A stretch of DNA of 64,000 nucleotides, taken from positions 356,919 to 420,918 of the forward strand of contig JAHPZA010000003.1 in NCBI GenBank assembly GCA_019058445.1, read 5' to 3'. A program made the translations under genes and the position numbers. The notes under the pieces were generated by a model that saw only the letters and a list, made by a program, of their open reading frames with translations, was not told where the DNA came from and ran no database searches. Shown here piece after piece: positions 32,662-44,120 of this stretch. This stretch comes from Promethearchaeota archaeon. Its GTDB lineage: Archaea; Asgardarchaeota; Lokiarchaeia; Sigyniarchaeales; SOKP01. The stretch's first letter is position 1, and each line of letters opens with the position of its first letter.

Positions 32662-33681
32662 TTAATAATCTAATTCTTCTCCAAGAGAGAGGCGACAAAG
32701 ATCACTTAGCAAATAATTTTTTAAACCCTTTCGTCTGGTTTTACCACCAAGAGCTTCCTTACACATTGAACAAGTGTAAACAACTACTTCAGCTCCATGG
32801 TCTATCATATCTTTAACGTTTTCAGTTTGAGATTTCCGCATTAAAGCTGTCTTGCCAAAAACTGGAAAAATTCCTCCACAACATAACGCATCTTCTCTAT
32901 CAAATTTTCTAGGTACTCTTTCAACGCCAATGAGATCGCATATTTTATCTACAAATTTATCCACTTCTGGGATAAACCTATTGGAACAACTACGTTGATA
33001 AGCCATTTTTAGGTTCAATTTTTTCAGTTCTGATTCATGGTCCTTTAAATAATTATACAAGTACTCATAAATATGAATCGGTTTGAAATCACTCGGAAGC
33101 TCTATATTATTTCGAGGGCAGTATGAAGCCCAAAATCCATAGCATTCATCATGAAAGCAAAGTAACTCTTTAATACCCTGTTTTTTCACGTTATCTATTA
33201 TAATGGGAGCTCTTTCTTTTATGATAGAATCGCGCATATAATGGTGATACACTAAATTACAAAAGAAATCGGTCCCTTTTACAAACTGTAAATTATCAAA
33301 CAACTGTCCTTGTAGATTTTCCGCATTTAGTTTTGCTAAACCACATTTATTTAAAACCGGTTTGCTTGGATCTATTGGCTTAAGGTTGACTTCATCATGT
33401 GGCGCAAAATTCTTAATTGTGGCATCAATTATTTTAGGATTAATATTAAGCGAATTAAATTTTTCTTGCAGTTCTATTTTTAAATCAAATGGATGAGAAT
33501 TATAAGGGCAATATTCGTCGCAAGCAAAACATGTTACACAATTTTTTAACACAAAAGAATCCTCACCATTTATCATTTTTTCCATTTCTATCCTTGCCGT
33601 TTCTTTATCAATATCCATCCACTGACATCTGGTCAAGCAATCTATATTTTCACATTCTGCGCAATTAGTGTTATCAAACAT
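32662..33681 (-). CDS. Fe-S oxidoreductase (CCG-domain) paralog 1
   Basis: CVTCFACDEYCP, CFHDEC, YQRSC and LCCGG motifs. Confidence 0.85.
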   Translation of the reverse strand: MFDNTNCAECENIDCLTRCQWMDIDKETARIEMEKMINGEDSFVLKNCVTCFACDEYCPYNSHPFDLKIELQEKFNSLNINPKIIDATIKNFAPHDEVNLKPIDPSKPVLNKCGLAKLNAENLQGQLFDNLQFVKGTDFFCNLVYHHYMRDSIIKERAPIIIDNVKKQGIKELLCFHDECYGFWASYCPRNNIELPSDFKPIHIYEYLYNYLKDHESELKKLNLKMAYQRSCSNRFIPEVDKFVDKICDLIGVERVPRKFDREDALCCGGIFPVFGKTALMRKSQTENVKDMIDHGAEVVVYTCSMCKEALGGKTRRKGLKNYLLSDLCRLSLGEELDY

Positions 33682-33750
33682 CTACCACATTTTCTCCAAT
33701 TGTAAGATTTTGCTTAATATATTGATTTATTACTTTATGTTTAATCATTG

Positions 33751-34779
33751 TTAATAATCTAATGTTTCTCCTAAAGCAAGTCTCGCTAAATCGCTAATAA
33801 AATAAGATTTCAAACCCTTACCGGTTACTTTTCGATCCAAGGTGTCCATACACATAGGACAATTAAAAATGCAAACTTCTGCGCCATGGTCTATCATATC
33901 TTGAACATTTTCATTTTGTGTTTTCCGAACCAGTTTTGGATGACCTCTCATTCCAAAGGGGGCAGCACAGCAAATACCATTTTCTCTATCAAATTTCCTT
34001 GCGACACGTTCTACTCCAATTAGTTCACATATATCATCGAGCATCTTATCAGTTTCGGGGACATATCTATTAGAACAATTTCGCTGATATGCTGCTTTTA
34101 AATTAAGTTTAATAATCTCAGATTCATGGTCTTTAAGATAATTATAGACATATTCGTAAATATGTACGGGTTTAAAAGGTACTTCAATGTTATTTCTTTG
34201 ACAATAGGAAGTATATAATCCATAACACTCGTCATGCCAACAAATCACTTCAGTATCTTTTAAAACTCCTGCTTTTCTAAAATTATCAAGGATAGTTGGA
34301 ACACGTTCTTTAATGATAGAAGGTTTTGCCACATGCTGGTATACTAATTGACAGAAATAATGCAATCCACCTACAGATTGCAGTTCATCAAACATTGGTC
34401 CGGTCATTTGTTTCGCATTCACTTTAGGAAATGCACATTTGTTTAAAACTGGCTTAATTGGATCAATCGGTCTTGCTTTAAATTCACCCTTAGCTGCATA
34501 CATATTAACTGAGTTCTGGGCAATTGTAGGTGAAATATTTTGAGACTGATATCTTTCCTGCAATTCATTGATCAAATCGAAAGGATGGGAATGATATGGA
34601 CAATATTCATCGCAAGCAAAGCAAAGCATGCAATCTTTTAATATGCGACAATCTTCATCCTCATTAATCAATTTGTTAATTTCTGCTCTTGCCGCTTCAA
34701 TATTTTCAAATTCAATCCATTGACATTTCATCATGCAGTCAACGCCTTCACATTCGGAACAATGAGATTTATCAAATAT
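33751..34779 (-). CDS. Fe-S oxidoreductase (CCG-domain) paralog 2; probable ATA start at 34779
   Basis: Upstream in-frame IFDKSHCSECEGVDC matches MFDKSNCANCEGIDC of paralog 3. Confidence 0.85.
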   Translation of the reverse strand: MFDKSHCSECEGVDCMMKCQWIEFENIEAARAEINKLINEDEDCRILKDCMLCFACDEYCPYHSHPFDLINELQERYQSQNISPTIAQNSVNMYAAKGEFKARPIDPIKPVLNKCAFPKVNAKQMTGPMFDELQSVGGLHYFCQLVYQHVAKPSIIKERVPTILDNFRKAGVLKDTEVICWHDECYGLYTSYCQRNNIEVPFKPVHIYEYVYNYLKDHESEIIKLNLKAAYQRNCSNRYVPETDKMLDDICELIGVERVARKFDRENGICCAAPFGMRGHPKLVRKTQNENVQDMIDHGAEVCIFNCPMCMDTLDRKVTGKGLKSYFISDLARLALGETLDY

Positions 34780-34961
34780 TTTAATACACCCTATACTTTT
34801 TTTATTATTTTTGAATAATTATTAGTTATAATTTTAATTATATGGGAGTAATTATTAATTTTGTTTTGTAATAAAAATTTGGTTCCAAATGCAACTTATT
34901 CTTTTACAAAATAGTAGAGATTTTCATTAATAGGAAATTTAAAGAAAAAAATTAAGTGGTT

Positions 34962-35984
34962 TTAATAATCCAACTTTTCACCTAAAGCAAGCCGACAAAG
35001 ATCACTAAGTAAATAATTTTTTAGACCTTTCCTCTCTACCTTTGAACCCATTGTCTCTTTACAAAAAGGACAATTATAAACGCATAATTCTGCTTCGTAT
35101 TCAATCATGTCATTAACATTTTTATTTTGGGTCTCTCTGATTAGATTTCTTTTCCCTAACAAAGCAAAGGGAGCTGTACAGCACAAAGCATTTTCTCTAT
35201 CATATTTTCTTTTAACTCTCTCAACACCTATCAATTCACAGATTTTATCAACCCATTTATCTGTTTCTGGATGAAATCGATTAGAACAACTTCTTTGATA
35301 TGCTATTTTCACATTTAGCTTTTTTATTTCTGATTCATGTTCTTTCAAATTGTTATATAAATATTCAAATAAGTGAATTGGACGAAAATTTGAAGGAAGT
35401 GTAATATTATTTCGAGAACAATAAGAAGCCCAAAATCCATAGCATTCGTCGTGAAAACAAATTAAATCTTGAACATTTTGTTTCTCGATATTATTAATTA
35501 GAATTGGTGCTCGTTCTTTTATTAAAGAATCTTTAGCTACATGAAGATACATAAGATTACAAAAAAAATCCGTTCCACTAACATATTGAAGATTTTCAAA
35601 TAATGGACCTTTCATATTCTCACCACACATTTTACTAAGAGCACATTTACTTAAAACTGGTTCATCCGATTTAATTGCTTTAAGCTTTAATTTCTCGTGA
35701 GGTTCAAACATATCAATTGTTCTTTGCACTAGTTGAGGATTTATATTATAAGAATTGAATTTTTCCTGTAATTGAACTATCAAATCAAATGGATGAGACC
35801 CATAGGGACAATATTCGTCACACGCTAAACAGGTAACACATTCATTTAAAACTCGAGATTCTTCACCGTTGATCATTTTAGTCATTTCTGCTTTAGCAGC
35901 ATCCTTGTTGTCAAATTCAATCCATTGACAACGGATCATACAGTCTATGCCTTCACAATTTGCACAATTCGATTTATCAAACAT
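34962..35984 (-). CDS. Fe-S oxidoreductase (CCG-domain) paralog 3
   Basis: Same Cys motifs as its neighbours. Confidence 0.85.
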   Translation of the reverse strand: MFDKSNCANCEGIDCMIRCQWIEFDNKDAAKAEMTKMINGEESRVLNECVTCLACDEYCPYGSHPFDLIVQLQEKFNSYNINPQLVQRTIDMFEPHEKLKLKAIKSDEPVLSKCALSKMCGENMKGPLFENLQYVSGTDFFCNLMYLHVAKDSLIKERAPILINNIEKQNVQDLICFHDECYGFWASYCSRNNITLPSNFRPIHLFEYLYNNLKEHESEIKKLNVKIAYQRSCSNRFHPETDKWVDKICELIGVERVKRKYDRENALCCTAPFALLGKRNLIRETQNKNVNDMIEYEAELCVYNCPFCKETMGSKVERKGLKNYLLSDLCRLALGEKLDY

Positions 35985-36108
35985 GTTTAATAGTACTTTT
36001 TATAATTAATTTTGAATAATTATTATCTATATTTATTATTACATCTTACTTGATAAAAAGGTTTAATTTCAAATTTCTTTTCTTTTATCTAAAAGTTCGT
36101 AATTTCCT

Positions 36109-36624
36109 TCATTCTTTTACGACAAATTCCCATGCGCAGTAATAATCGTCCGGGTGTGAGTCTGGCGGGCAACATATACAGTTGGTTTCTATTCGAGGAT
36201 CGATAGTTGTTGCAAAATCGCCGTATTCAACTAATCCAACACCTTTACATGGAAAATCAGGCAACCCCCTACTTTTTCTGGCATATTGTACTCGGCAATT
36301 ATTCATCCGAAAAATGCAGCGATTCTCAGATATTTCGACAATTTCTTGTTCATTTATATTAGCATAAACTCTGAATTTTAATGCGCTGATTAATGCGGGA
36401 ATTCCCCCATTATCGGGAAGTTTGAATCTCTGTTTTATTCTTTTAGCTTCTATTACAGTAAATCGTTTCCATTGCTTAATATCAATATCGATAGCTTTTT
36501 CTATACCGAATTCTTTCTCAACAACTTGAAACCAAGTACCATCAATAGCAAGCCAATTCTTAGAGATATCTTCGATATAGTTGATTAGTTCGTCCTTTGA
36601 GAGATTTAAAAGTTCCTCGTTCAT
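36109..36624 (-). CDS. DUF6125-like (V4R/ATC-hydrolase-like) protein
   Basis: WLAIDGTWF, CRVQYAR, FPCK and CICCPPD.HP...C.W motifs. Confidence 0.7.
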   Translation of the reverse strand: MNEELLNLSKDELINYIEDISKNWLAIDGTWFQVVEKEFGIEKAIDIDIKQWKRFTVIEAKRIKQRFKLPDNGGIPALISALKFRVYANINEQEIVEISENRCIFRMNNCRVQYARKSRGLPDFPCKGVGLVEYGDFATTIDPRIETNCICCPPDSHPDDYYCAWEFVVKE

Positions 36625-36687
36625 AACAACTCAATTTTAAAAAGTCAATAATCCGTGATTTGGATAAAGAGAAATAATTTATATAGT

Positions 36688-38421
36688 TTATTTCCAAGTA
36701 TTTTTCTTACTTTCAGATTCATTCCACAATTTTCTAAGCATATATGCTGCCATTTTTGGCCTACGATCTCTCGTAAATACGCCTTTATAATTATAGGCTC
36801 CTACTCTATGGATACCTTGAGGAGTTTTGAAATCACACATGTTCCATATATGTTGCCCAATGACATAGGGCTTACTATTTATAACTTCGATGTATTTTTT
36901 CAAAAACTCTACTTGATACTCTTCGCTGAACATTTCGGGCGGTTGGGAATGCCATCCTGGAATAGTATCTGCTCCAAATTCCGCTAATATTATTGGTTTA
37001 GAATATTTTTGATAAAATTTATCAATCTCTTTTGACAAATCTTCACATCCTTCATCAATCAGTCCTGGTCCAATATACCACGCATAGTAACGATTCATAC
37101 ATACTATGTCTAAAAATTCAAAGGCTCTATCTCTTACAGCTTGCATATTAATTATGGTAACCAGTCTTGTTGGATCAATTTCCTTACTTAAATCATATAA
37201 CTCCCTGAAAAAATCTTTAGATTTTGTGCTAGAATGAGGTTCATTTGCTAAACTCCACACGATTACGCTTGGATGGTTCTTGTCGCGAGCAATAAGCTCT
37301 CTTGTATATTGTTTACAAAGCTCTAGATGGCGTTCAATATGGCGCTTGTGAAACGTTAGCCCAACTGCCGGAGTTTCATCTATAACCAAAAAGCCGAGTT
37401 GGTCTGCAAGATCCATCATCTGTTCGGAATAAGGATAATGGGAAGTGCGAAAGGAATTGGCCCCAATCCATTTCATTAATGAATAATCTTTAATAATAAC
37501 TGCTGGATTATATCCCCTTCCTGTTATAGGAAAGTCAATATGTTTGGCAAATCCAATTAATTCGATTGTGTTACCATTTAGGAGCAATTGATCTCCGGAA
37601 ACTTCAATCGTTCTTATTCCTATTCTTAGTTGATATGAATCGAAGATAGAATCATTTTTTAAGAGCTCGACTGTGAGATCGTATAGATTAGGATGGTCGG
37701 GATCCCATAGTGCAGCATTTGGTACTTCGATTATAAGTTCTGCCGTTTTATCTTCTATTATTGCTGTTTTTGATAAATCTATTCCATGACCTTTTAGATT
37801 AATATTCGCTGTTAAGGAACTTTTTTCAGCACATTCGAGAATTATCTGGACTTTTCCCATATCACCTTCAATGGAAGTGCGAACAGTGATATCTTCGATG
37901 CCATCATTTGGAATTGAATAGAGTAAGACTGGACGATGAATACCACAATAGGGAAAAAAATCAAAATTAGTTGCTGGATAAAACATAGGACGCCCTCCGG
38001 GGGGAACTCGATCATCGGCTAAATTACCATCTACTCTTACGATTAAATGATTATTTTGAGCTTTTAGTTTAGAAGTAACGTTAAACTCGAAGGGAATATG
38101 TCCTCCCTCATGTTGTCCAAGTTGATCCCCGTTCAGCCAAACCTCTGCTATATAGTTCACAGAGCCAAATCGTAGAGTTACTTTTTGATCCGTCCAACCC
38201 CATGGAAGATCGAAATACGTTTGATACCATGCGGGACCTAAAAAATCTCGATTATCGGCAAATTGGTCGTTCCAGCTTGCCGGTACGGCAATTGGCTGGC
38301 TTTTATCAAATCCAGACTGCCAATTCTCTTTCAATCCTTCGTTATTAGTATCAAAACGGAAATCCCAAAAGCCAGATAAATCAATATATTGACGATACTT
38401 ATTTCTTTGTGGATAAAGCAT
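36688..38421 (-). CDS. uidA: Beta-glucuronidase (GH2)
   Basis: DFFPYCGIHRPV, NSFRTSHYPY, WSLANEP, EFGAD and NYKG (NxKG) motifs. Confidence 0.92.
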   Translation of the reverse strand: MLYPQRNKYRQYIDLSGFWDFRFDTNNEGLKENWQSGFDKSQPIAVPASWNDQFADNRDFLGPAWYQTYFDLPWGWTDQKVTLRFGSVNYIAEVWLNGDQLGQHEGGHIPFEFNVTSKLKAQNNHLIVRVDGNLADDRVPPGGRPMFYPATNFDFFPYCGIHRPVLLYSIPNDGIEDITVRTSIEGDMGKVQIILECAEKSSLTANINLKGHGIDLSKTAIIEDKTAELIIEVPNAALWDPDHPNLYDLTVELLKNDSIFDSYQLRIGIRTIEVSGDQLLLNGNTIELIGFAKHIDFPITGRGYNPAVIIKDYSLMKWIGANSFRTSHYPYSEQMMDLADQLGFLVIDETPAVGLTFHKRHIERHLELCKQYTRELIARDKNHPSVIVWSLANEPHSSTKSKDFFRELYDLSKEIDPTRLVTIINMQAVRDRAFEFLDIVCMNRYYAWYIGPGLIDEGCEDLSKEIDKFYQKYSKPIILAEFGADTIPGWHSQPPEMFSEEYQVEFLKKYIEVINSKPYVIGQHIWNMCDFKTPQGIHRVGAYNYKGVFTRDRRPKMAAYMLRKLWNESESKKNTWK

Positions 38422-38575: not shown

Positions 38576-39517
38576 ATGAATATAAATGAAATTAAACAAG
38601 TTATGGTAGTTGGAGCAGGAACTATGGGTCATTCCATTGCCCAAGTGTACGCTCAATCAGGATTTGATGTAGATATAGTTGATTTAAAGCAAGAATTACT
38701 TAATAAAGCATTAAATAAAATTAGACTCAACTTAAACCTTTTAGCTGATTATCAACGCGTTCCATCTGATGAAATTGATTCTATTTTAAGTCGTATACAT
38801 CTTTCAACTAATCTTAAAGTCGCAGCTAAAAGAGCTGATTATGTTGTTGAAGTTGTTAGTGAAAACCGAGAAATAAAAAGAGAAGTTTATTCTCAGTTGG
38901 ATGAATATTGCTCAAGTAAGATAATATTCGCCAGTAATACGTCGGAATTAAATATTTTCAAATTAGTAGATATTAATAATCCCGAAAGATTAGTAATTCA
39001 GCATTGGTTTAGACCTGCTCATATAATTCCTTTAGTTGAAATAGTGGCAGGAAGAAAAACAACTCCAGAAGTAGTCGATTTATCATATAATATGCTAAAG
39101 AAACTTGGTAAAACTCCAATTATCTTAAAGAAATTCACAAATGCATTTATCGTAAATAAAATCCAGCAGGCAATGAATTCTGCTATATTCGGACTTTTAT
39201 TAAAAGGGATTGCAACACCCGAGGAAATTGATTTAGCAGTGAAAACAAGTTTCAGCTTAAGGTTGCCTGTTGTAGGCGTGGTCCAGAATTTAGATTTTGT
39301 TGGACTTGATGTCATATCTGATGTTCTTAAAAATATGGGCCTAGAGCTTTCGATAATTAAAGAAAGAGTTGATCAAGGACACTATGGTGTAAAAACTTCT
39401 AAAGGTTTATTTGATTATAGTGGGCGTAGTGAAGAGGAAATTCTTAGAAAAAAGGATGAAAAATACCTTAAAATACTCAAGTTTCTTGAAGAATTAGATA
39501 TATTTGAACCAGTATAA
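38576..39517 (+). CDS. 3-hydroxyacyl-CoA dehydrogenase family protein
   Basis: VVGAGTMGHSIA, ASNTS and HWF.PAHIIPLVE motifs. Confidence 0.88.
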   Translation: MNINEIKQVMVVGAGTMGHSIAQVYAQSGFDVDIVDLKQELLNKALNKIRLNLNLLADYQRVPSDEIDSILSRIHLSTNLKVAAKRADYVVEVVSENREIKREVYSQLDEYCSSKIIFASNTSELNIFKLVDINNPERLVIQHWFRPAHIIPLVEIVAGRKTTPEVVDLSYNMLKKLGKTPIILKKFTNAFIVNKIQQAMNSAIFGLLLKGIATPEEIDLAVKTSFSLRLPVVGVVQNLDFVGLDVISDVLKNMGLELSIIKERVDQGHYGVKTSKGLFDYSGRSEEEILRKKDEKYLKILKFLEELDIFEPV

Positions 39518-39681
39518 ATATGGAAGAGGGCAAACGCTTTAAGTTTTTTAATACTCATAAAAGAAACAATAATCAAATTAGATCCTCACAATAAAAAGAG
39601 ATAATTTACAATAATTTTTATTTAAAAATATCTAATTTTAATTAAAAGAAATCAAATTAAGAATTAAGAGGTTATTAAAAA

Positions 39682-40642
39682 TTGAAACCAAATTTACTTA
39701 CAGATAAGAGTGTTATTATAACAGCTGCAATTACTGGGGGAGCCCATGGGAAAAAAGTTTAGATTTTTTTGAATTTTACCAAAATGGACAAATCCCAATT
39801 TACCTATAACTCCAGAAGAACAAGCGCAAGATGCTCTAGAGTGCTATGAAGCAGGTGCAACTGTATGCCATATCCATGTTCGAGGCGAAGATGGATGGGC
39901 AACACCCGATCTAAAATATTATAACAAAACTGTGAAATTAATTAAAGAAAAATGCCCAATTATTACTCAAATTGGTAATGGAATCGGAGTTCGGCTCGAA
40001 CAAGGAGTTAAAGTAAGTAAAACAGGTAAAAGATATGGTCAAGCTTTTAGATTCGCTACATTGGATCAAAGACTTAATTTATTGAATATTGATCCTCAAC
40101 CGGACATGTTTACTATAAATGCTGGTACATTTGAATTTAGAACGGTTACTAGAGGTATGAAAACGGCATTTATTTTCGATAATCCCCTCGATTTTAATCA
40201 AAAGTATATCAAACAATGTAAAAAACTGGGAGCTGGGATAGAAATTGAAGCGTATGATACAGCTCATATCGCTAATATCATGGATTTAGTCGATATGGGT
40301 GTATTTGATCAGGACGAAAAACTTCATTTCAGTCTGGTTCTAGGCATTCAAGGGGGCGCACCGGCCACGGTTAATAATTTAATTCATATGGTAGATTTAC
40401 TCCCCGAAGGATCCACTTGGCAAGTAGTAACTATTAGCAAATTTCATCTTAGAACGACAGTAATAGCGATGTGCATGGGTGGCAATATCAGAACGGGTCT
40501 CGAAGACACAATTTATTATCAAAAAGGTGAACCTGTAAAAAGTAATGCTCAACTGGTAAAACGGATGGCAAGAATTGCCCGTGAACTTGGTAGAGAACCT
40601 GCAAATATTGATGAAGCAAAAGAATTATTAGAATTAAAATAA
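39682..40642 (+). CDS. kce: Beta-keto acid cleavage enzyme (Kce/DUF849); join(39682..39752,39784..40642), 309 aa after splicing
   Basis: Exon 1 MKPNLLTDKSVIITAAITGGAHG; exon 2 (K)WTNPNLPITPEEQA...CHIHVR...RTGLED; SD GAGG before TTG. Confidence 0.85.
39753..39783 (+). other. Bulge-helix-bulge (archaeal splicing-endonuclease type) intron in a protein-coding gene
   Basis: CCA-UGGG-AA^A-[AAAGUUUAGA UUUU UUUGAAUUUU]-ACCA-AA^A-UGG; removing 31 nt restores the frame. Confidence 0.8.
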
Positions 40643-40677: not shown

Positions 40678-41262
40678 TTAATCAAAACTTAAAGATAACA
40701 ATTTTTCTAATGTTAGCGATAATCCCATTTCATCAACTTTTTTTTTTAAGAATTCAAGATTAATATTCTTCTTATTAGCATGATATAAAGTCAAAAAATC
40801 AATTATATCTTGATATTCAAACAACTCAGAATCTGGAATATCATTGATTATACCCAGAAATATGATTTTTCCAAGTAAGACATATTCTAAGGGAGCCATA
40901 TACAAGCTAAAACCAAAAATCTTATTTAAGACAGCATTGTTTAAGACATCTTTCTCTCTTTTTCTATCTGCAACCTTTATATCTAACCTCATATATCCTT
41001 TTTTATCGAAAACAGATATATTTGTTTTTTCTTGATAACCCTTATTAAATTGTTCTTCCATTACATCGAAATCATAAGCCTTTAATAAGCCTATAAATTG
41101 AGTAATTTTTGAAAGATCATCCTCAATTATTATATCGATATCTTGCGTTGCTCTTACATGGCCGTAATGAATAAGTGCGATTCCACCAATTATTACATAT
41201 TTAATTTTAACTGCAGAAAAAATCTTATCAAGACGAGATAAGATGTCTTCTAATTCTGCCAT
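40678..41262 (-). CDS. Nucleotidyltransferase (DUF6036/AbiEii-like)
   Basis: IIGGIAL..YG..RATQDID motif. Confidence 0.75.
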   Translation of the reverse strand: MAELEDILSRLDKIFSAVKIKYVIIGGIALIHYGHVRATQDIDIIIEDDLSKITQFIGLLKAYDFDVMEEQFNKGYQEKTNISVFDKKGYMRLDIKVADRKREKDVLNNAVLNKIFGFSLYMAPLEYVLLGKIIFLGIINDIPDSELFEYQDIIDFLTLYHANKKNINLEFLKKKVDEMGLSLTLEKLLSLSFD

Positions 41263-41546
41263 TAATCTTCACGTTTTTTTTTAAATGATTTAATTTTTTC
41301 TTTCAAAGCTAGATTTTTTTTGATTATATTCTTGATCTCTTCAGTATTGGCTTCAGGATTTCTTTTAATTATTCCATCTTCCATTAATTTGAAGGAATTA
41401 TGTATAAATTGATCAGCAATCTTTAACGGTTCTATACCACACTCTAAAATTCTTTTCGCGGATTCAATTTCTAACTTTACTTTTTCTTTTCTTATGAAGA
41501 GGAGCTCTTCTCGAGATAAATTTTTGTTTGAATTTTCAGAATTCAT
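41262..41546 (-). CDS. Small helical protein coupled to the nucleotidyltransferase (possible antitoxin)
   Basis: TAATG stop/start overlap at 41262. Confidence 0.55.
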   Translation of the reverse strand: MNSENSNKNLSREELLFIRKEKVKLEIESAKRILECGIEPLKIADQFIHNSFKLMEDGIIKRNPEANTEEIKNIIKKNLALKEKIKSFKKKRED

Positions 41547-42833: not shown

Positions 42834-44120
42834 TTATAATAATGTTTGTGCAAATATTTTAATTTTTTCTCTTATCACTTTATCAGAAGCAAAGCGCGCA
42901 TCTCCTACATCCACATCAATCAACAGCATTGGAATCCCGACTTCATCTCTTAATGCTTCTCTTAGGATTTGAGGGATACTCCCAAATTGTTTACACCCTA
43001 TATGAGAGGTGAATATAAAGCAATCAGCGCTAAATTCTTTTGCTAATCTCACACATTCATCTATAAATGGATAATAAAATTCAGCTGATTGTTTAACCAT
43101 AGGGGCCTCCATACTTTTCTTTGCCATTCCATAAAACATAGTTTCCAAATTGGATGTATCGATAGGGTCTGCAAAGTTATAGTTAAATATATCGAAAAGA
43201 ATACTCATGCCTAATTCTCGGTCTAACCATTCTGAAATTGCCAAGTCAAAGAAAATAATCATATAAGGCCAAATTGACCTAATCCGTTCTTCTCCACCAT
43301 GATGCTCTTTGTTCTTATATCTTTTTTGAGCAAGGGCCAACATATCATCATAGAAATATTCTTTTTCAGGACGACCAGATAAAAAAATGGATGCCGCTGC
43401 CGCCATTGCATTAAACATGTTTTCAACTGGACAAGGGATTGCTTTTTTTAATTCAAAAATGTCCATTTGCGTTTTATAGATTCGATTTTCAATCTCTATA
43501 TGGTTCTTCAATTTCTCATAATTCGGTTCTTGTTTAATTATCTTACCTAAATCATTTAAGGAAAGCTGAATTTGCTTGGCATAATAATCATAACTTTTCT
43601 CTTCTTTTAAGAAAGGTAAATCGGGCGTAATTAAAGGAATACCTTCCTTATACTGGAAATATGGATAGGACGCATAAGTATTATCACAGGGAGCAGTAGG
43701 AGTAACAATGGCATCGAACTGAAATAAACCATCCAAAGTCATACCCATCGTACCTTTCTGAGAAGAACAAGTATGAAAAGGATGTCCCCAATGTGTGATT
43801 AGATCATAATATGGTTCTGAACCTTCTGGTAATAAAGCGGCCATTAAATATGAAACTGCTTCAATGCATATAGGAACACAATCAAAAGCATAGAGGTACT
43901 CAGTTTGAAATGAGAAATGATGACCAATAACAGGTAATCCTTCACCAGCTTTATCAATCTGATCTTGTAAAGCATCTGTCAAATATTTTAATCCATATTT
44001 TAAAGAAGGAATGCCTTGTTCAGGTAAGATTCTTTCAATTAACTCATGAGTAGTAGTAATAGCTTCTAAAAGCATTTTGTAGGGTATTATTTTGTTTTCC
44101 AGTTCTAAGCGATTTACCAT
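42834..44120 (-). CDS. 2-hydroxyacyl-CoA dehydratase subunit (HgdA-like)
   Basis: HTCSSQKG, PCD, GCKQ and GIPML.IDVD motifs. Confidence 0.85.
   Translation of the reverse strand: MVNRLELENKIIPYKMLLEAITTTHELIERILPEQGIPSLKYGLKYLTDALQDQIDKAGEGLPVIGHHFSFQTEYLYAFDCVPICIEAVSYLMAALLPEGSEPYYDLITHWGHPFHTCSSQKGTMGMTLDGLFQFDAIVTPTAPCDNTYASYPYFQYKEGIPLITPDLPFLKEEKSYDYYAKQIQLSLNDLGKIIKQEPNYEKLKNHIEIENRIYKTQMDIFELKKAIPCPVENMFNAMAAAASIFLSGRPEKEYFYDDMLALAQKRYKNKEHHGGEERIRSIWPYMIIFFDLAISEWLDRELGMSILFDIFNYNFADPIDTSNLETMFYGMAKKSMEAPMVKQSAEFYYPFIDECVRLAKEFSADCFIFTSHIGCKQFGSIPQILREALRDEVGIPMLLIDVDVGDARFASDKVIREKIKIFAQTLL

What the first reader, a model, noticed from the sequence alone, without database searches (positions are those of the whole stretch)
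39741..39795. tRNA-type bulge-helix-bulge intron inside a metabolic protein-coding gene (kce)
Seen: the family N-terminus IITAAITGGAHG (from TTG 39682) runs into TAG at 39760, and NPNLPITPEE...HIHVR continues in another frame. The interruption folds as a BHB motif: exon stem CCA/UGG (extended by GGGA/UCCC), central helix UGGG 39747-50 with ACCA 39778-81 (3 pairs plus a G-A mismatch), two AAA bulges (39751-53, 39782-84) and a 10-bp intron stem with a U4 loop. Cutting after the second nucleotide of each bulge excises exactly 31 nt (AAAAGTTTAGATTTTTTTGAATTTTACCAAA) and yields CAT GGG AAA TGG ACA AAT = HGKWTN, in frame, 309 aa. Known: EndA cuts BHB motifs at those positions and RtcB ligates; the classic archaeal mRNA example is cbf5 of Crenarchaeota. 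Inference: pre-mRNA splicing of a metabolic gene in a probable Asgard archaeon, which automated annotation would miss as a truncated ORF.
Basis: partly seen in the sequence, partly recalled or inferred. Interest (0 to 1): 0.93.

Follow-up and report, generated by a model that had tools for sequence, protein, structure and literature searches.

The report
tRNA-type intron splitting an enzyme gene

Summary
No RNA evidence was available.

- **The break.** A BKACE-family gene (TTG 39682 to TAA 40642) is interrupted at 39753-39783 by 31 nt that add a TAG and shift the frame. No single frameshift can bridge it.
- **The fold.** The insert forms a relaxed bulge-helix-bulge: a 5-position exon helix (4 pairs in this genome, with a C.A mismatch), a central helix of 3 pairs plus an invariant G.A, two AAA bulges, and a 10-bp hairpin.
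- **Other assemblies.** Seven independent assemblies carry the insert. Their only variable insert positions are three loop bases and one G.U to G-C change.
- **Intronless alleles.** About 100 orthologues lack it, with exactly the predicted junction. One of these is nested inside the intron-bearing clade, which indicates a precise loss.
- **Selection.** The exons of intron-bearing alleles are under purifying selection (dN/dS about 0.1).
- **A second site.** Two other lineages carry different inserts (31 and 29 nt) 15 nt upstream. Both fold as canonical BHB motifs.
- **Same genome.** Four more genes (aEF-2-like, CODH, OYE-like, HdrD-like) are split by 30-32-nt BHB inserts.
- **Caveats.** RtcB and archease are present, but the catalytic EndA subunit is missing from this 92.6%-complete assembly. 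"kce" is too specific a name.
- **Prior notes.** This scan has already noted such introns elsewhere in this genome.

The parts
39668..39671 (+). Shine-Dalgarno-like GAGG, 10 nt upstream of the TTG start
   Evidence: Read from the sequence. Orthologues have ATG, GTG or TTG at the aligned start position.
39682..39752 (+). Exon 1 (71 nt). It encodes residues 1-23 and the first two bases of Lys24, and supplies the first beta-strand motif VIITAAITGG.
   Evidence: In intronless orthologues residues 10-25 match BKACE profile positions 1-16. Exon 2 alone starts at profile position 17.
39753..39783 (+). 31-nt BHB intron. It contains TAG 39760-62 in the exon-1 frame and TGA 39770-72 in the exon-2 frame.
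   Evidence: It is absent, exactly, from intronless orthologues. It is present in 7 assemblies. It occurs only once in the genome.
39742..39746 (+). Exon helix h, 5' strand (GCCCA). It pairs with 39785-39789.
   Evidence: C43.A88 is a mismatch in this genome and in ABR15, and a C-G pair in the other five alleles.
39747..39750 (+). Central helix H, 5' strand (UGGG, exon 1). It pairs with 39778-39781 (ACCA, intron): 3 pairs plus G50.A78.
   Evidence: The G.A mismatch is invariant in all 7 alleles.
39751..39753 (+). 5' bulge AAA. The inferred cut lies within it.
   Evidence: Any symmetric pair of cuts in the two AAA bulges gives the same mRNA.
39754..39777 (+). Intron hairpin h': a 10-bp stem (39754-63 with 39768-77) and the loop 39764-67.
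   Evidence: Three of the four variable intron positions lie in the loop. The fourth turns G57.U74 into G-C.
39782..39784 (+). 3' bulge AAA. The inferred cut lies within it.
39785..39789 (+). Exon helix h, 3' strand (UGGAC; UGGGC in most alleles).
39784..40642 (+). Exon 2, including the TAA stop. It encodes the rest of the BKACE TIM-barrel enzyme with the HIHVR motif.
38576..39517 (+). Upstream 3-hydroxyacyl-CoA dehydrogenase-family gene, the likely functional partner of the BKACE gene.
   Evidence: Pfam 3HCDH_N and 3HCDH. It is adjacent to the BKACE gene throughout the intron-bearing clade, and lies on the other side of it in the sister clade.

Best explanation
Positions 39753-39783 are an archaeal bulge-helix-bulge (tRNA-type) intron inside the coding region of a BKACE-family beta-keto-acid cleavage enzyme gene of a Promethearchaeota (Loki-type Asgard) archaeon.

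The proposed mechanism has four steps.
1. The gene is transcribed with the insert.
2. Exon 1 (GCCCA-UGGG) pairs with exon 2 (UGGAC) and with the 3' end of the insert (ACCA). This presents two AAA bulges four positions apart, next to a 10-bp intron hairpin.
3. The splicing endonuclease EndA cuts once in each bulge.
4. RtcB, helped by archease, joins the exons to give ...CAU GGG AAA UGG... and a 309-aa enzyme. The 31-nt intron is released, probably as a circle.

Unspliced mRNA can give only a 26-residue peptide.

What is shown: the interruption, the fold, the exact presence/absence polymorphism, conservation compatible with the structure, purifying selection on the exons, and sister cases.

What is inferred: cleavage by EndA, ligation by RtcB, and any regulatory use.
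For: 1. **Exact junction.** Intronless orthologues read CATGGGAAATGG, precisely the predicted splice product. About 100 distinct orthologues are uninterrupted.
2. **Independent assemblies.** Seven assemblies from several projects carry the insert: G000, ABR15, DZ2S.378, DZ1M.447, WOR8, SMTZ1 and Ga0209636.
3. **Purifying selection on exons.** Among intron-bearing alleles dS is 0.32-0.39 and dN/dS is 0.09-0.11, the same as among intronless alleles.
4. **Conserved insert.** At that divergence about 9 differences per pair would be expected in 31 neutral sites (my estimate). Observed differences are 0-3. They fall in the 4-nt loop (3 positions) or convert G.U to G-C (1 position).
5. **Rare motif.** A motif this good at this spacing occurs at 1.2e-6 of genome positions.
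6. **One gain, one loss.** The gene tree places the intronless allele of DZG_bin1.240 inside the intron clade (bootstrap 100), with the same gene order. This indicates one gain and one precise loss.
7. **A second site.** In two other lineages a different insert lies 15 nt upstream. The two inserts are 31 and 29 nt long and have unrelated hairpin sequences. Both fold as canonical hBHBh' motifs whose excision restores the frame. Unconstrained MFE folding gives the same motif for the 31-nt insert (L055) and a two-bulge fold in a slightly different register for the 29-nt one (L127).
8. **Other split genes in the same genome.** Four more genes carry 30-32-nt BHB inserts, and their two halves hit successive parts of one Pfam profile. 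For example, Prismane positions 3-457 and 458-512.
9. **Splicing machinery.** RtcB and an adjacent archease are encoded. ARAGORN reports introns in 19 of the 23 tRNA genes it detects, which suggests the organism splices BHB introns routinely. Asgard EndAs are reported to be the broad-specificity (alpha-beta)2 type (PMC5829648).
Against: - No transcript data could be consulted, so splicing is not observed.
- The central helix has a G.A mismatch, so the motif is relaxed rather than canonical. The unconstrained MFE fold prefers a register that would remove 30 nt.
- The only EndA homologue in this assembly lacks the catalytic Tyr and His and so looks like a beta subunit. The catalytic alpha subunit was found in the 8 congeners searched, but not here.
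- There are no double compensatory changes at site A, because the clade is too shallow.
- An intact 69%-identical paralogue exists 70 kb away, so the gene might be dispensable.
- My motif-plus-ORF-fusion census did not show a genome-wide excess over controls.
Confidence: 0.87

Rival explanations
1. The gene is an inactivated pseudogene. The 31 nt would be an insertion scar, for example from a tiny mobile element with an AAA target duplication, that is never removed.
For: - The insert adds a stop codon and a frameshift.
- It is flanked by AAA direct repeats.
- A 69%-identical intact paralogue could cover the function.
Against: - dN/dS stays at about 0.1 over dS 0.3-0.4 among intron-bearing alleles, and no second lesion appears in any of the 7 alleles.
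- The insert itself is far more conserved than synonymous sites, and it varies only where the BHB fold allows.
- The insert has no other copy in the genome.
- Independent BHB inserts occur at another site of the same gene and in four other genes.
Confidence: 0.04
2. Translational bypassing, as in phage T4 gene 60. Peptidyl-tRNA-Lys would take off from AAA 39751-53 and land on AAA 39782-84. The ribosome would skip the gap and make the same protein without any RNA cutting.
For: - Matched take-off and landing codons (AAA and AAA) lie 31 nt apart.
- A stop codon lies two codons after the take-off site.
- A hairpin lies in the gap.
- The protein product would be identical.
Against: - The site-B inserts and the four other split genes of this genome have no matched take-off and landing codons, yet all have BHB geometry.
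- Conservation covers the H and h pairings with the exons, which bypassing does not need.
- The clean, exact loss in one lineage gives the junction expected for an intron.
Confidence: 0.04
3. Two successive -1 frameshifts, or transcriptional slippage on the A6 and A4/T7 runs, carry the ribosome through the insert in the third frame.
For: The third frame is open across the insert, and homopolymer runs lie at both ends.
Against: - It needs two independent recoding events.
- It would add about 10 residues between Lys24 and Trp25, where none of about 100 orthologues has any.
- The T7 run is not conserved: it is T5 in WOR8 and T3CT3 in DZ2S.378.
- It cannot explain the other BHB-split genes.
Confidence: 0.01
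4. The 31 nt are an assembly or sequencing artefact.
For: The region is homopolymer-rich and AT-rich, and the genome is a draft of 10 contigs.
Against: The same 31 nt, with 0-3 substitutions, occur in seven assemblies from different samples and projects.
Confidence: 0.01

Closest known systems
cbf5 pre-mRNA intron of Crenarchaeota (Watanabe et al. 2002; Yokobori et al. 2009, PMC2738675)
   Same: - A short BHB-type intron inside the coding region of an archaeal protein gene.
- Removed by the tRNA-splicing endonuclease of the hetero-oligomeric type.
- Patchy distribution, with lineage-specific loss.
   Different: - A different gene: a metabolic BKACE enzyme rather than an RNA pseudouridine synthase.
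- A different phylum: Promethearchaeota (Asgard) rather than Crenarchaeota.
- Here the same gene has two distinct intron sites in different lineages.
- The host genome carries at least four further CDS introns of the same 30-32-nt size.
- cbf5 splicing was shown experimentally. This case is inferred.
BHB intron in the 5' UTR of Haloferax volcanii HVO_1309 mRNA (PMC7714728)
   Same: An mRNA substrate of the archaeal splicing endonuclease outside tRNA and rRNA.
   Different: That intron lies in the untranslated leader and does not interrupt the reading frame. It was confirmed in vitro and in vivo.
Non-canonical tRNA introns of Asgard archaea (bioRxiv 10.64898/2026.10.13.758758; EndA typing in PMC5829648)
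   Same: - The same host group.
[quoted passage not shown]
- Repeated gains and losses.
- A broad-specificity (alpha-beta)2 EndA.
   Different: Those introns interrupt tRNA genes. Neither paper reports introns in protein-coding genes.
IRE1/RtcB splicing of HAC1/XBP1 mRNA in eukaryotes
   Same: Spliceosome-independent removal of a short, frame-shifting mRNA intron by an endonuclease that cuts at two stem-loops, followed by ligation (by RtcB in metazoa). Splicing is needed to make the functional protein.
   Different: The endonuclease and its recognition motif are different. That system is a regulated stress response. No regulation is shown here.

Membership tests
Archaeal BHB (EndA-dependent) intron | [quoted passage not shown] | tested here: met
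   The bulges are 39751-53 and 39782-84. They are separated by 39747-50 paired with 39778-81. The spacing of 31 nt equals the insertion length defined from the intronless alleles.
Archaeal BHB (EndA-dependent) intron | Canonical form: all four central pairs are Watson-Crick or wobble | tested here: not met
   G50.A78 is a mismatch in all 7 alleles. The motif is therefore a relaxed BHB, of the kind reported to be cut only by the (alpha-beta)2 and epsilon2 EndA types (PMC5829648). The site-B inserts of other lineages do meet this feature.
Archaeal BHB (EndA-dependent) intron | Flanking helices h (exon-exon) and h' (intron) | tested here: met
   h has 5 positions, with 4 pairs here and 5 in most alleles. 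h' has 10 pairs.
Archaeal BHB (EndA-dependent) intron | Excision at the bulges restores the functional sequence | tested here: met
   Excision gives a 309-codon ORF that is collinear, without a gap, with about 100 intronless orthologues.
Archaeal BHB (EndA-dependent) intron | The host encodes the splicing endonuclease and the RtcB ligase | tested here: inconclusive
   RtcB and archease are present. Only a beta-like EndA subunit was found, with Tyr replaced by Phe and His by Ser. The catalytic alpha subunit is present in the 8 congeners searched. The assembly is 92.6% complete.
Archaeal BHB (EndA-dependent) intron | Spliced RNA and excised (circular) intron observed | not testable with these tools
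BKACE (PF05853) beta-keto acid cleavage enzymes | Full-length match to the family profile | tested here: met
   Exon 2 matches profile positions 17-274 at E 2e-77. In intronless orthologues positions 1-16 align to the residues that exon 1 encodes here.
Kce (3-keto-5-aminohexanoate cleavage enzyme, lysine fermentation) | Score above the NCBIfam equivalog cut-off | tested here: not met
   NF052387 scores 222 bits against a cut-off of 382. The neighbouring gene is a 3-hydroxyacyl-CoA dehydrogenase-family gene, not a lysine-fermentation gene.

The most novel reading that the evidence does not exclude
Loki-type Asgard archaea carry a genome-wide population of uniform mini-introns, about 30 nt long, in protein-coding genes, including translation and central-metabolism genes. 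These introns would be removed by the tRNA-splicing machinery (EndA, RtcB). They would be gained and precisely lost on short evolutionary time scales, and would recur at sites where the exon sequence can supply half of the BHB motif. That would make interrupted protein genes and obligatory mRNA splicing a normal feature of the closest prokaryotic relatives of eukaryotes.
Probability: 0.55. Interest if true: 0.92.

Novelty: new member of a known kind. Interest (0 to 1): 0.8.

Why it matters
In the papers I could search, BHB introns in archaeal mRNAs are described for one coding region (cbf5, Crenarchaeota) and one 5' UTR (Haloferax). PMC7714728 says so explicitly. I found nothing on protein-gene introns in Asgard archaea.

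This case matters in three ways.

1. **New group and new gene class.** It adds a well-supported intron in a metabolic gene of the archaeal group closest to eukaryotes.
2. **Not a one-off.** The same gene has two intron sites in different lineages. Four other genes of this genome are split in the same way, and a relative carries a similar 31-nt insert in a gene that is intact here.
3. **Gene calling.** Automated annotation gives a 236-aa truncated ORF here and would call such genes pseudogenes. This biases metabolic reconstructions of Asgard MAGs.

It also makes several questions testable: how such introns arise, how they are lost exactly, and whether dependence on splicing is used for regulation.

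Tried and rejected
1. **Genome-wide census by motif plus ORF fusion.** I scanned both strands for BHB motifs, strict and relaxed, with intron lengths of 11-160 nt. I then asked whether excision fuses two open frames. Counts never exceeded controls in which 1-2 nt more or fewer were excised: 541 against about 520, 519 against 543, and 2211 against about 2170. This held even after adding a Shine-Dalgarno/start filter and a codon-usage score. Adjacent gene boundaries swamp the signal, so I give no estimate of intron number. Four candidates picked by eye from these lists were then confirmed with Pfam.
2. **Thermodynamic significance.** The z-score is -0.74, which is uninformative in AT-rich sequence.
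3. **Covariation test at site A.** There are no double compensatory changes, because the clade is too shallow.
4. **Mobile-element origin.** The insert has no second copy in the genome.
5. **Reverse-transcriptase route for the precise loss.** No RVT_1 hit was found in this genome. The AAA/AAA direct repeat could also give the same deletion by slippage, so the mechanism of loss stays open.
6. **Catalytic EndA subunit.** A Pfam search at a loose threshold, a search with a congener's alpha protein, and an offline tblastn all failed to find it.
7. **aEF-2 as proof of essentiality.** The genome also has a 36%-identical EF-2 paralogue and a 97%-identical fragment. The split copy therefore cannot be called essential.
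8. **The U7 tract as a conserved terminator or switch.** The run is not conserved among alleles.

Full report
**What is in the sequence**

The window is G000:C3:356919-420918 of a 4.6-Mb archaeal draft genome with 10 contigs, about 31% GC and 92.6% completeness. Its closest public relatives are MAGs labelled Promethearchaeota or Promethearchaeia, that is, Loki-type Asgard archaea.

From TTG 39682, which is preceded by GAGG 10 nt upstream, frame 1 reads LKPNLLTDKSVIITAAITGGAHGKKV and ends at TAG 39760-62. The frame that carries the rest of the gene opens only at 39773, after TGA 39770-72, and runs to TAA 40640-42. That piece matches Pfam BKACE (PF05853) at E 2e-77, but only from profile position 17.

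In intronless orthologues, profile positions 1-16 align to the residues that exon 1 encodes here. The two frames do not overlap, so no single frameshift can join them. The ORF finder sees only a 236-aa remnant starting at GTG 39932, which lacks the HIHVR motif.

**The fold**

Checked base by base, the region forms the following elements:
- an exon-exon helix h, 39742-46 with 39785-89, with one C.A mismatch in this genome;
- a central helix H, 39747-50 with 39778-81, made of U-A, G-C, G-C and a G.A mismatch;
- two AAA bulges, 39751-53 and 39782-84;
- a 10-bp intron hairpin h', 39754-63 with 39768-77, with a 4-nt loop.

On each strand the 5'-to-3' order is helix, H, bulge, helix, which is the BHB topology. 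Because both bulges are AAA, any symmetric pair of cuts removes 31 nt and gives CAU GGG AAA UGG.

Folding energy alone is not significant (z = -0.74). The unconstrained MFE also prefers a register shifted by one base. However, a motif at least this good at spacing 31 occurs at only 1.2e-6 of positions in the genome.

**Comparative evidence, site A**

I collected about 130 orthologous loci from species-representative genomes and metagenomes.

Seven independent assemblies carry the same 31 nt at the same place: G000, ABR15, DZ2S.378, DZ1M.447, WOR8, SMTZ1 and Ga0209636. All other full-length orthologues, about 100 distinct sequences, are uninterrupted. The closest of them read CATGGGAAATGGGC, exactly the predicted junction.

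The five variable columns in the 48-nt motif are as follows:
- three loop positions (39764, 39765, 39767);
- 39774 T to C, which turns G57.U74 into G-C;
- exon position 39788 A/G, which turns C43.A88 into C-G.

Exons of intron-bearing alleles differ at dS 0.32-0.39 with dN/dS 0.09-0.11. This is the same as among intronless alleles (0.07), and no allele has a second lesion. At that divergence I estimate about 9 differences per pair in 31 unconstrained sites. The observed number is 0-3.

The insert is therefore under stronger constraint than synonymous sites, in the pattern the BHB fold predicts. The gene is not decaying.

**Gain and loss**

A nucleotide ML tree and a 107-sequence protein tree both put all site-A alleles in one clade. 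The split from the intronless sister clade has 97% support.

The intronless allele of DZG_bin1.240 is nested inside that clade as sister of DZ1M.447 (bootstrap 100, dS 0.17). It shares the clade-specific gene order, dehydrogenase upstream of BKACE, which is reversed in the sister clade.

The simplest history is one gain and one exact loss. The exact loss could come from recombination with a cDNA of spliced mRNA, although no RVT_1 gene was found in G000. It could also come from slippage between the AAA repeats. I cannot decide between these.

**A second intron site in the same gene**

Two other lineages carry an insert 15 nt upstream, between codons 17 and 18 (ATA A|CC): DZ1B.201 (which is G022) and the metagenome contig Ga0315289.

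The two inserts are 31 and 29 nt long, and their hairpin sequences are unrelated. Both form canonical hBHBh' motifs in the base-by-base check. Both use the same exon-derived strands: H is CGAU, pairing with AUCG or GUCG, and h has 6-8 pairs. Unconstrained MFE folding reproduces the motif for the 31-nt insert. For the 29-nt insert it gives a two-bulge fold in a slightly different register. Excision restores A-I-T-G-G in both.

In the tree the two are not sisters. The cause is therefore either an old intron with several losses or repeated gain at a permissive site.

**The same genome has more such genes**

My motif-plus-ORF-fusion scan gave no statistical excess over controls (see Tried and rejected). 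Four candidates from it were nevertheless confirmed with Pfam:
- an aEF-2-like gene, 30-nt insert, GTP_EFTU profile 2-33 and 48-187;
- a CODH/prismane gene, 32-nt insert, profile 3-457 and 458-512;
- an Oxidored_FMN gene, 30-nt insert, profile 1-105 and 119-338;
- an HdrD-like Fer4/CCG gene, 31-nt insert.

All four have a 4-bp H. Where the splice junction falls on a codon boundary, none has matched codons at the two ends of the insert, which argues against ribosomal bypassing.

In the window itself, the HGD-D gene at 42834-44120 is intact. Its orthologue in congener G008 carries a 31-nt hairpin-containing insert at the position corresponding to about 43759, and removing that insert restores the frame.

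**Machinery**

RtcB (C1:114713-116020) and an adjacent archease are present. ARAGORN finds only 23 tRNA genes and reports introns in 19 of them. This fits the heavily interrupted tRNA genes described for Asgard archaea (bioRxiv 10.64898/2026.10.13.758758).

The single EndA homologue in the assembly (C9, 202 aa) aligns to M. jannaschii EndA with Phe and Ser at the catalytic Tyr and His positions. It therefore looks like the structural beta subunit. The catalytic alpha subunit, with Tyr, His and Lys intact, is present in the 8 congeners searched but was not found in G000. Since pre-tRNA splicing is thought to be essential, an assembly gap seems the most likely reason, but this is a caveat.

Asgard EndAs are reported to be (alpha-beta)2 enzymes with the L1 loop that confers broad specificity (PMC5829648). 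That is the type needed for a relaxed motif like this one.

**What the gene is**

It belongs to the BKACE family. The NCBIfam Kce equivalog scores 222 bits against a cut-off of 382, so the substrate is unknown.

The conserved neighbour is a 3-hydroxyacyl-CoA dehydrogenase-family enzyme. From general knowledge of BKACE gene contexts, this suggests a module in which a beta-hydroxy acid is oxidised to a beta-keto acid and then cleaved with acetyl-CoA.

**Rivals**

- *Pseudogene or insertion scar.* This is contradicted by purifying selection, the hyper-conserved insert and the sister cases.
- *Translational bypassing from AAA to AAA.* This would give the same protein and cannot be excluded for this site alone. 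It does not explain the conserved exon-intron pairings or the other BHB-split genes.
- *Double frameshifting.* This would add about 10 residues that no orthologue has.
- *Assembly artefact.* This is excluded by seven independent assemblies.

**Comparison with what is known, and novelty**

The mechanism proposed is that of the cbf5 pre-mRNA intron of Crenarchaeota, which also shows lineage-specific loss (PMC2738675). In 2020 that was stated to be the only BHB intron in an archaeal coding region, alongside one 5'-UTR intron in Haloferax (PMC7714728). I found no report of protein-gene introns in Asgard archaea in the searchable library. That library does not cover all journals.

This is therefore a new member of a known kind, in a new phylum and a new gene class, and it belongs to what looks like a wider population.

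This scan had already noted BHB introns in other genes of this genome. I re-tested one of those leads independently (CODH) and probably a second (the Fe-S enzyme).

Noticed in passing
G000 other contigs: C10 near 684145 (-), C6 near 396833 (-), C6 near 165902 (-), C6 near 752444 (+); loci L103-L106: Four more genes are split by 30-32-nt BHB inserts: an aEF-2-like gene, a CODH/prismane gene, an Oxidored_FMN+Pyr_redox_2 gene and an HdrD-like Fer4/CCG gene. In three of them the two halves hit successive parts of one Pfam profile; exon 1 of the HdrD-like gene (28 aa) gave no hit.
   Followed up: partly
window 42834-44120 (-), around 43759; L192/L200 (G008:C464): The HGD-D (2-hydroxyglutaryl-CoA dehydratase D-component) gene is intact here. 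Its orthologue in congener G008 has a 31-nt hairpin-containing insert. Removing it restores Q-K-G-A-L-G-M. Its central helix has an A.G mismatch at the same position as the G.A in the BKACE intron.
   Followed up: partly
G000:C9:770313-770921 (L001 1219-1827): The only EndA homologue in the assembly has Phe and Ser at the catalytic Tyr and His positions, so it looks like a beta subunit. The catalytic alpha subunit, found in the 8 congeners searched, was not found in G000.
   Followed up: yes
whole genome G000: ARAGORN detects only 23 tRNA genes in 4.6 Mb, and 19 of them have predicted introns. Several calls are odd (tRNA-Stop, SeC, Pyl). Many tRNA genes are probably too interrupted to be detected.
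   Followed up: no
window 40678-41546 (-): A DUF6036 nucleotidyltransferase (194 aa) and an overlapping 94-aa ORF lie just downstream of the BKACE gene. This cassette was not found next to the gene in any relative locus, so it looks like a mobile toxin-antitoxin-like pair. Earlier notes of this scan call similar pairs MenT-like.
   Followed up: partly
window 38576-40642 versus L036-L038: The order of the dehydrogenase and BKACE genes is reversed between the intron-bearing clade (dehydrogenase upstream) and its intronless sister clade (dehydrogenase downstream).
   Followed up: partly
G000:C10:652107-652778 and C9:663790-665787: There is a 97%-identical fragment of the C-terminal third of the intron-bearing aEF-2-like gene 30 kb away from it. 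A second, 36%-identical full-length EF-2 paralogue lies on another contig.
   Followed up: no
window 32662-38421 (-): Three tandem paralogues (about 330 aa each) with a C-terminal CCG cysteine-rich domain are followed by a DUF6125 protein and a GH2 glycosidase.
   Followed up: no
G000:C1:114713-116452: The RtcB and archease genes are adjacent and convergent.
   Followed up: no
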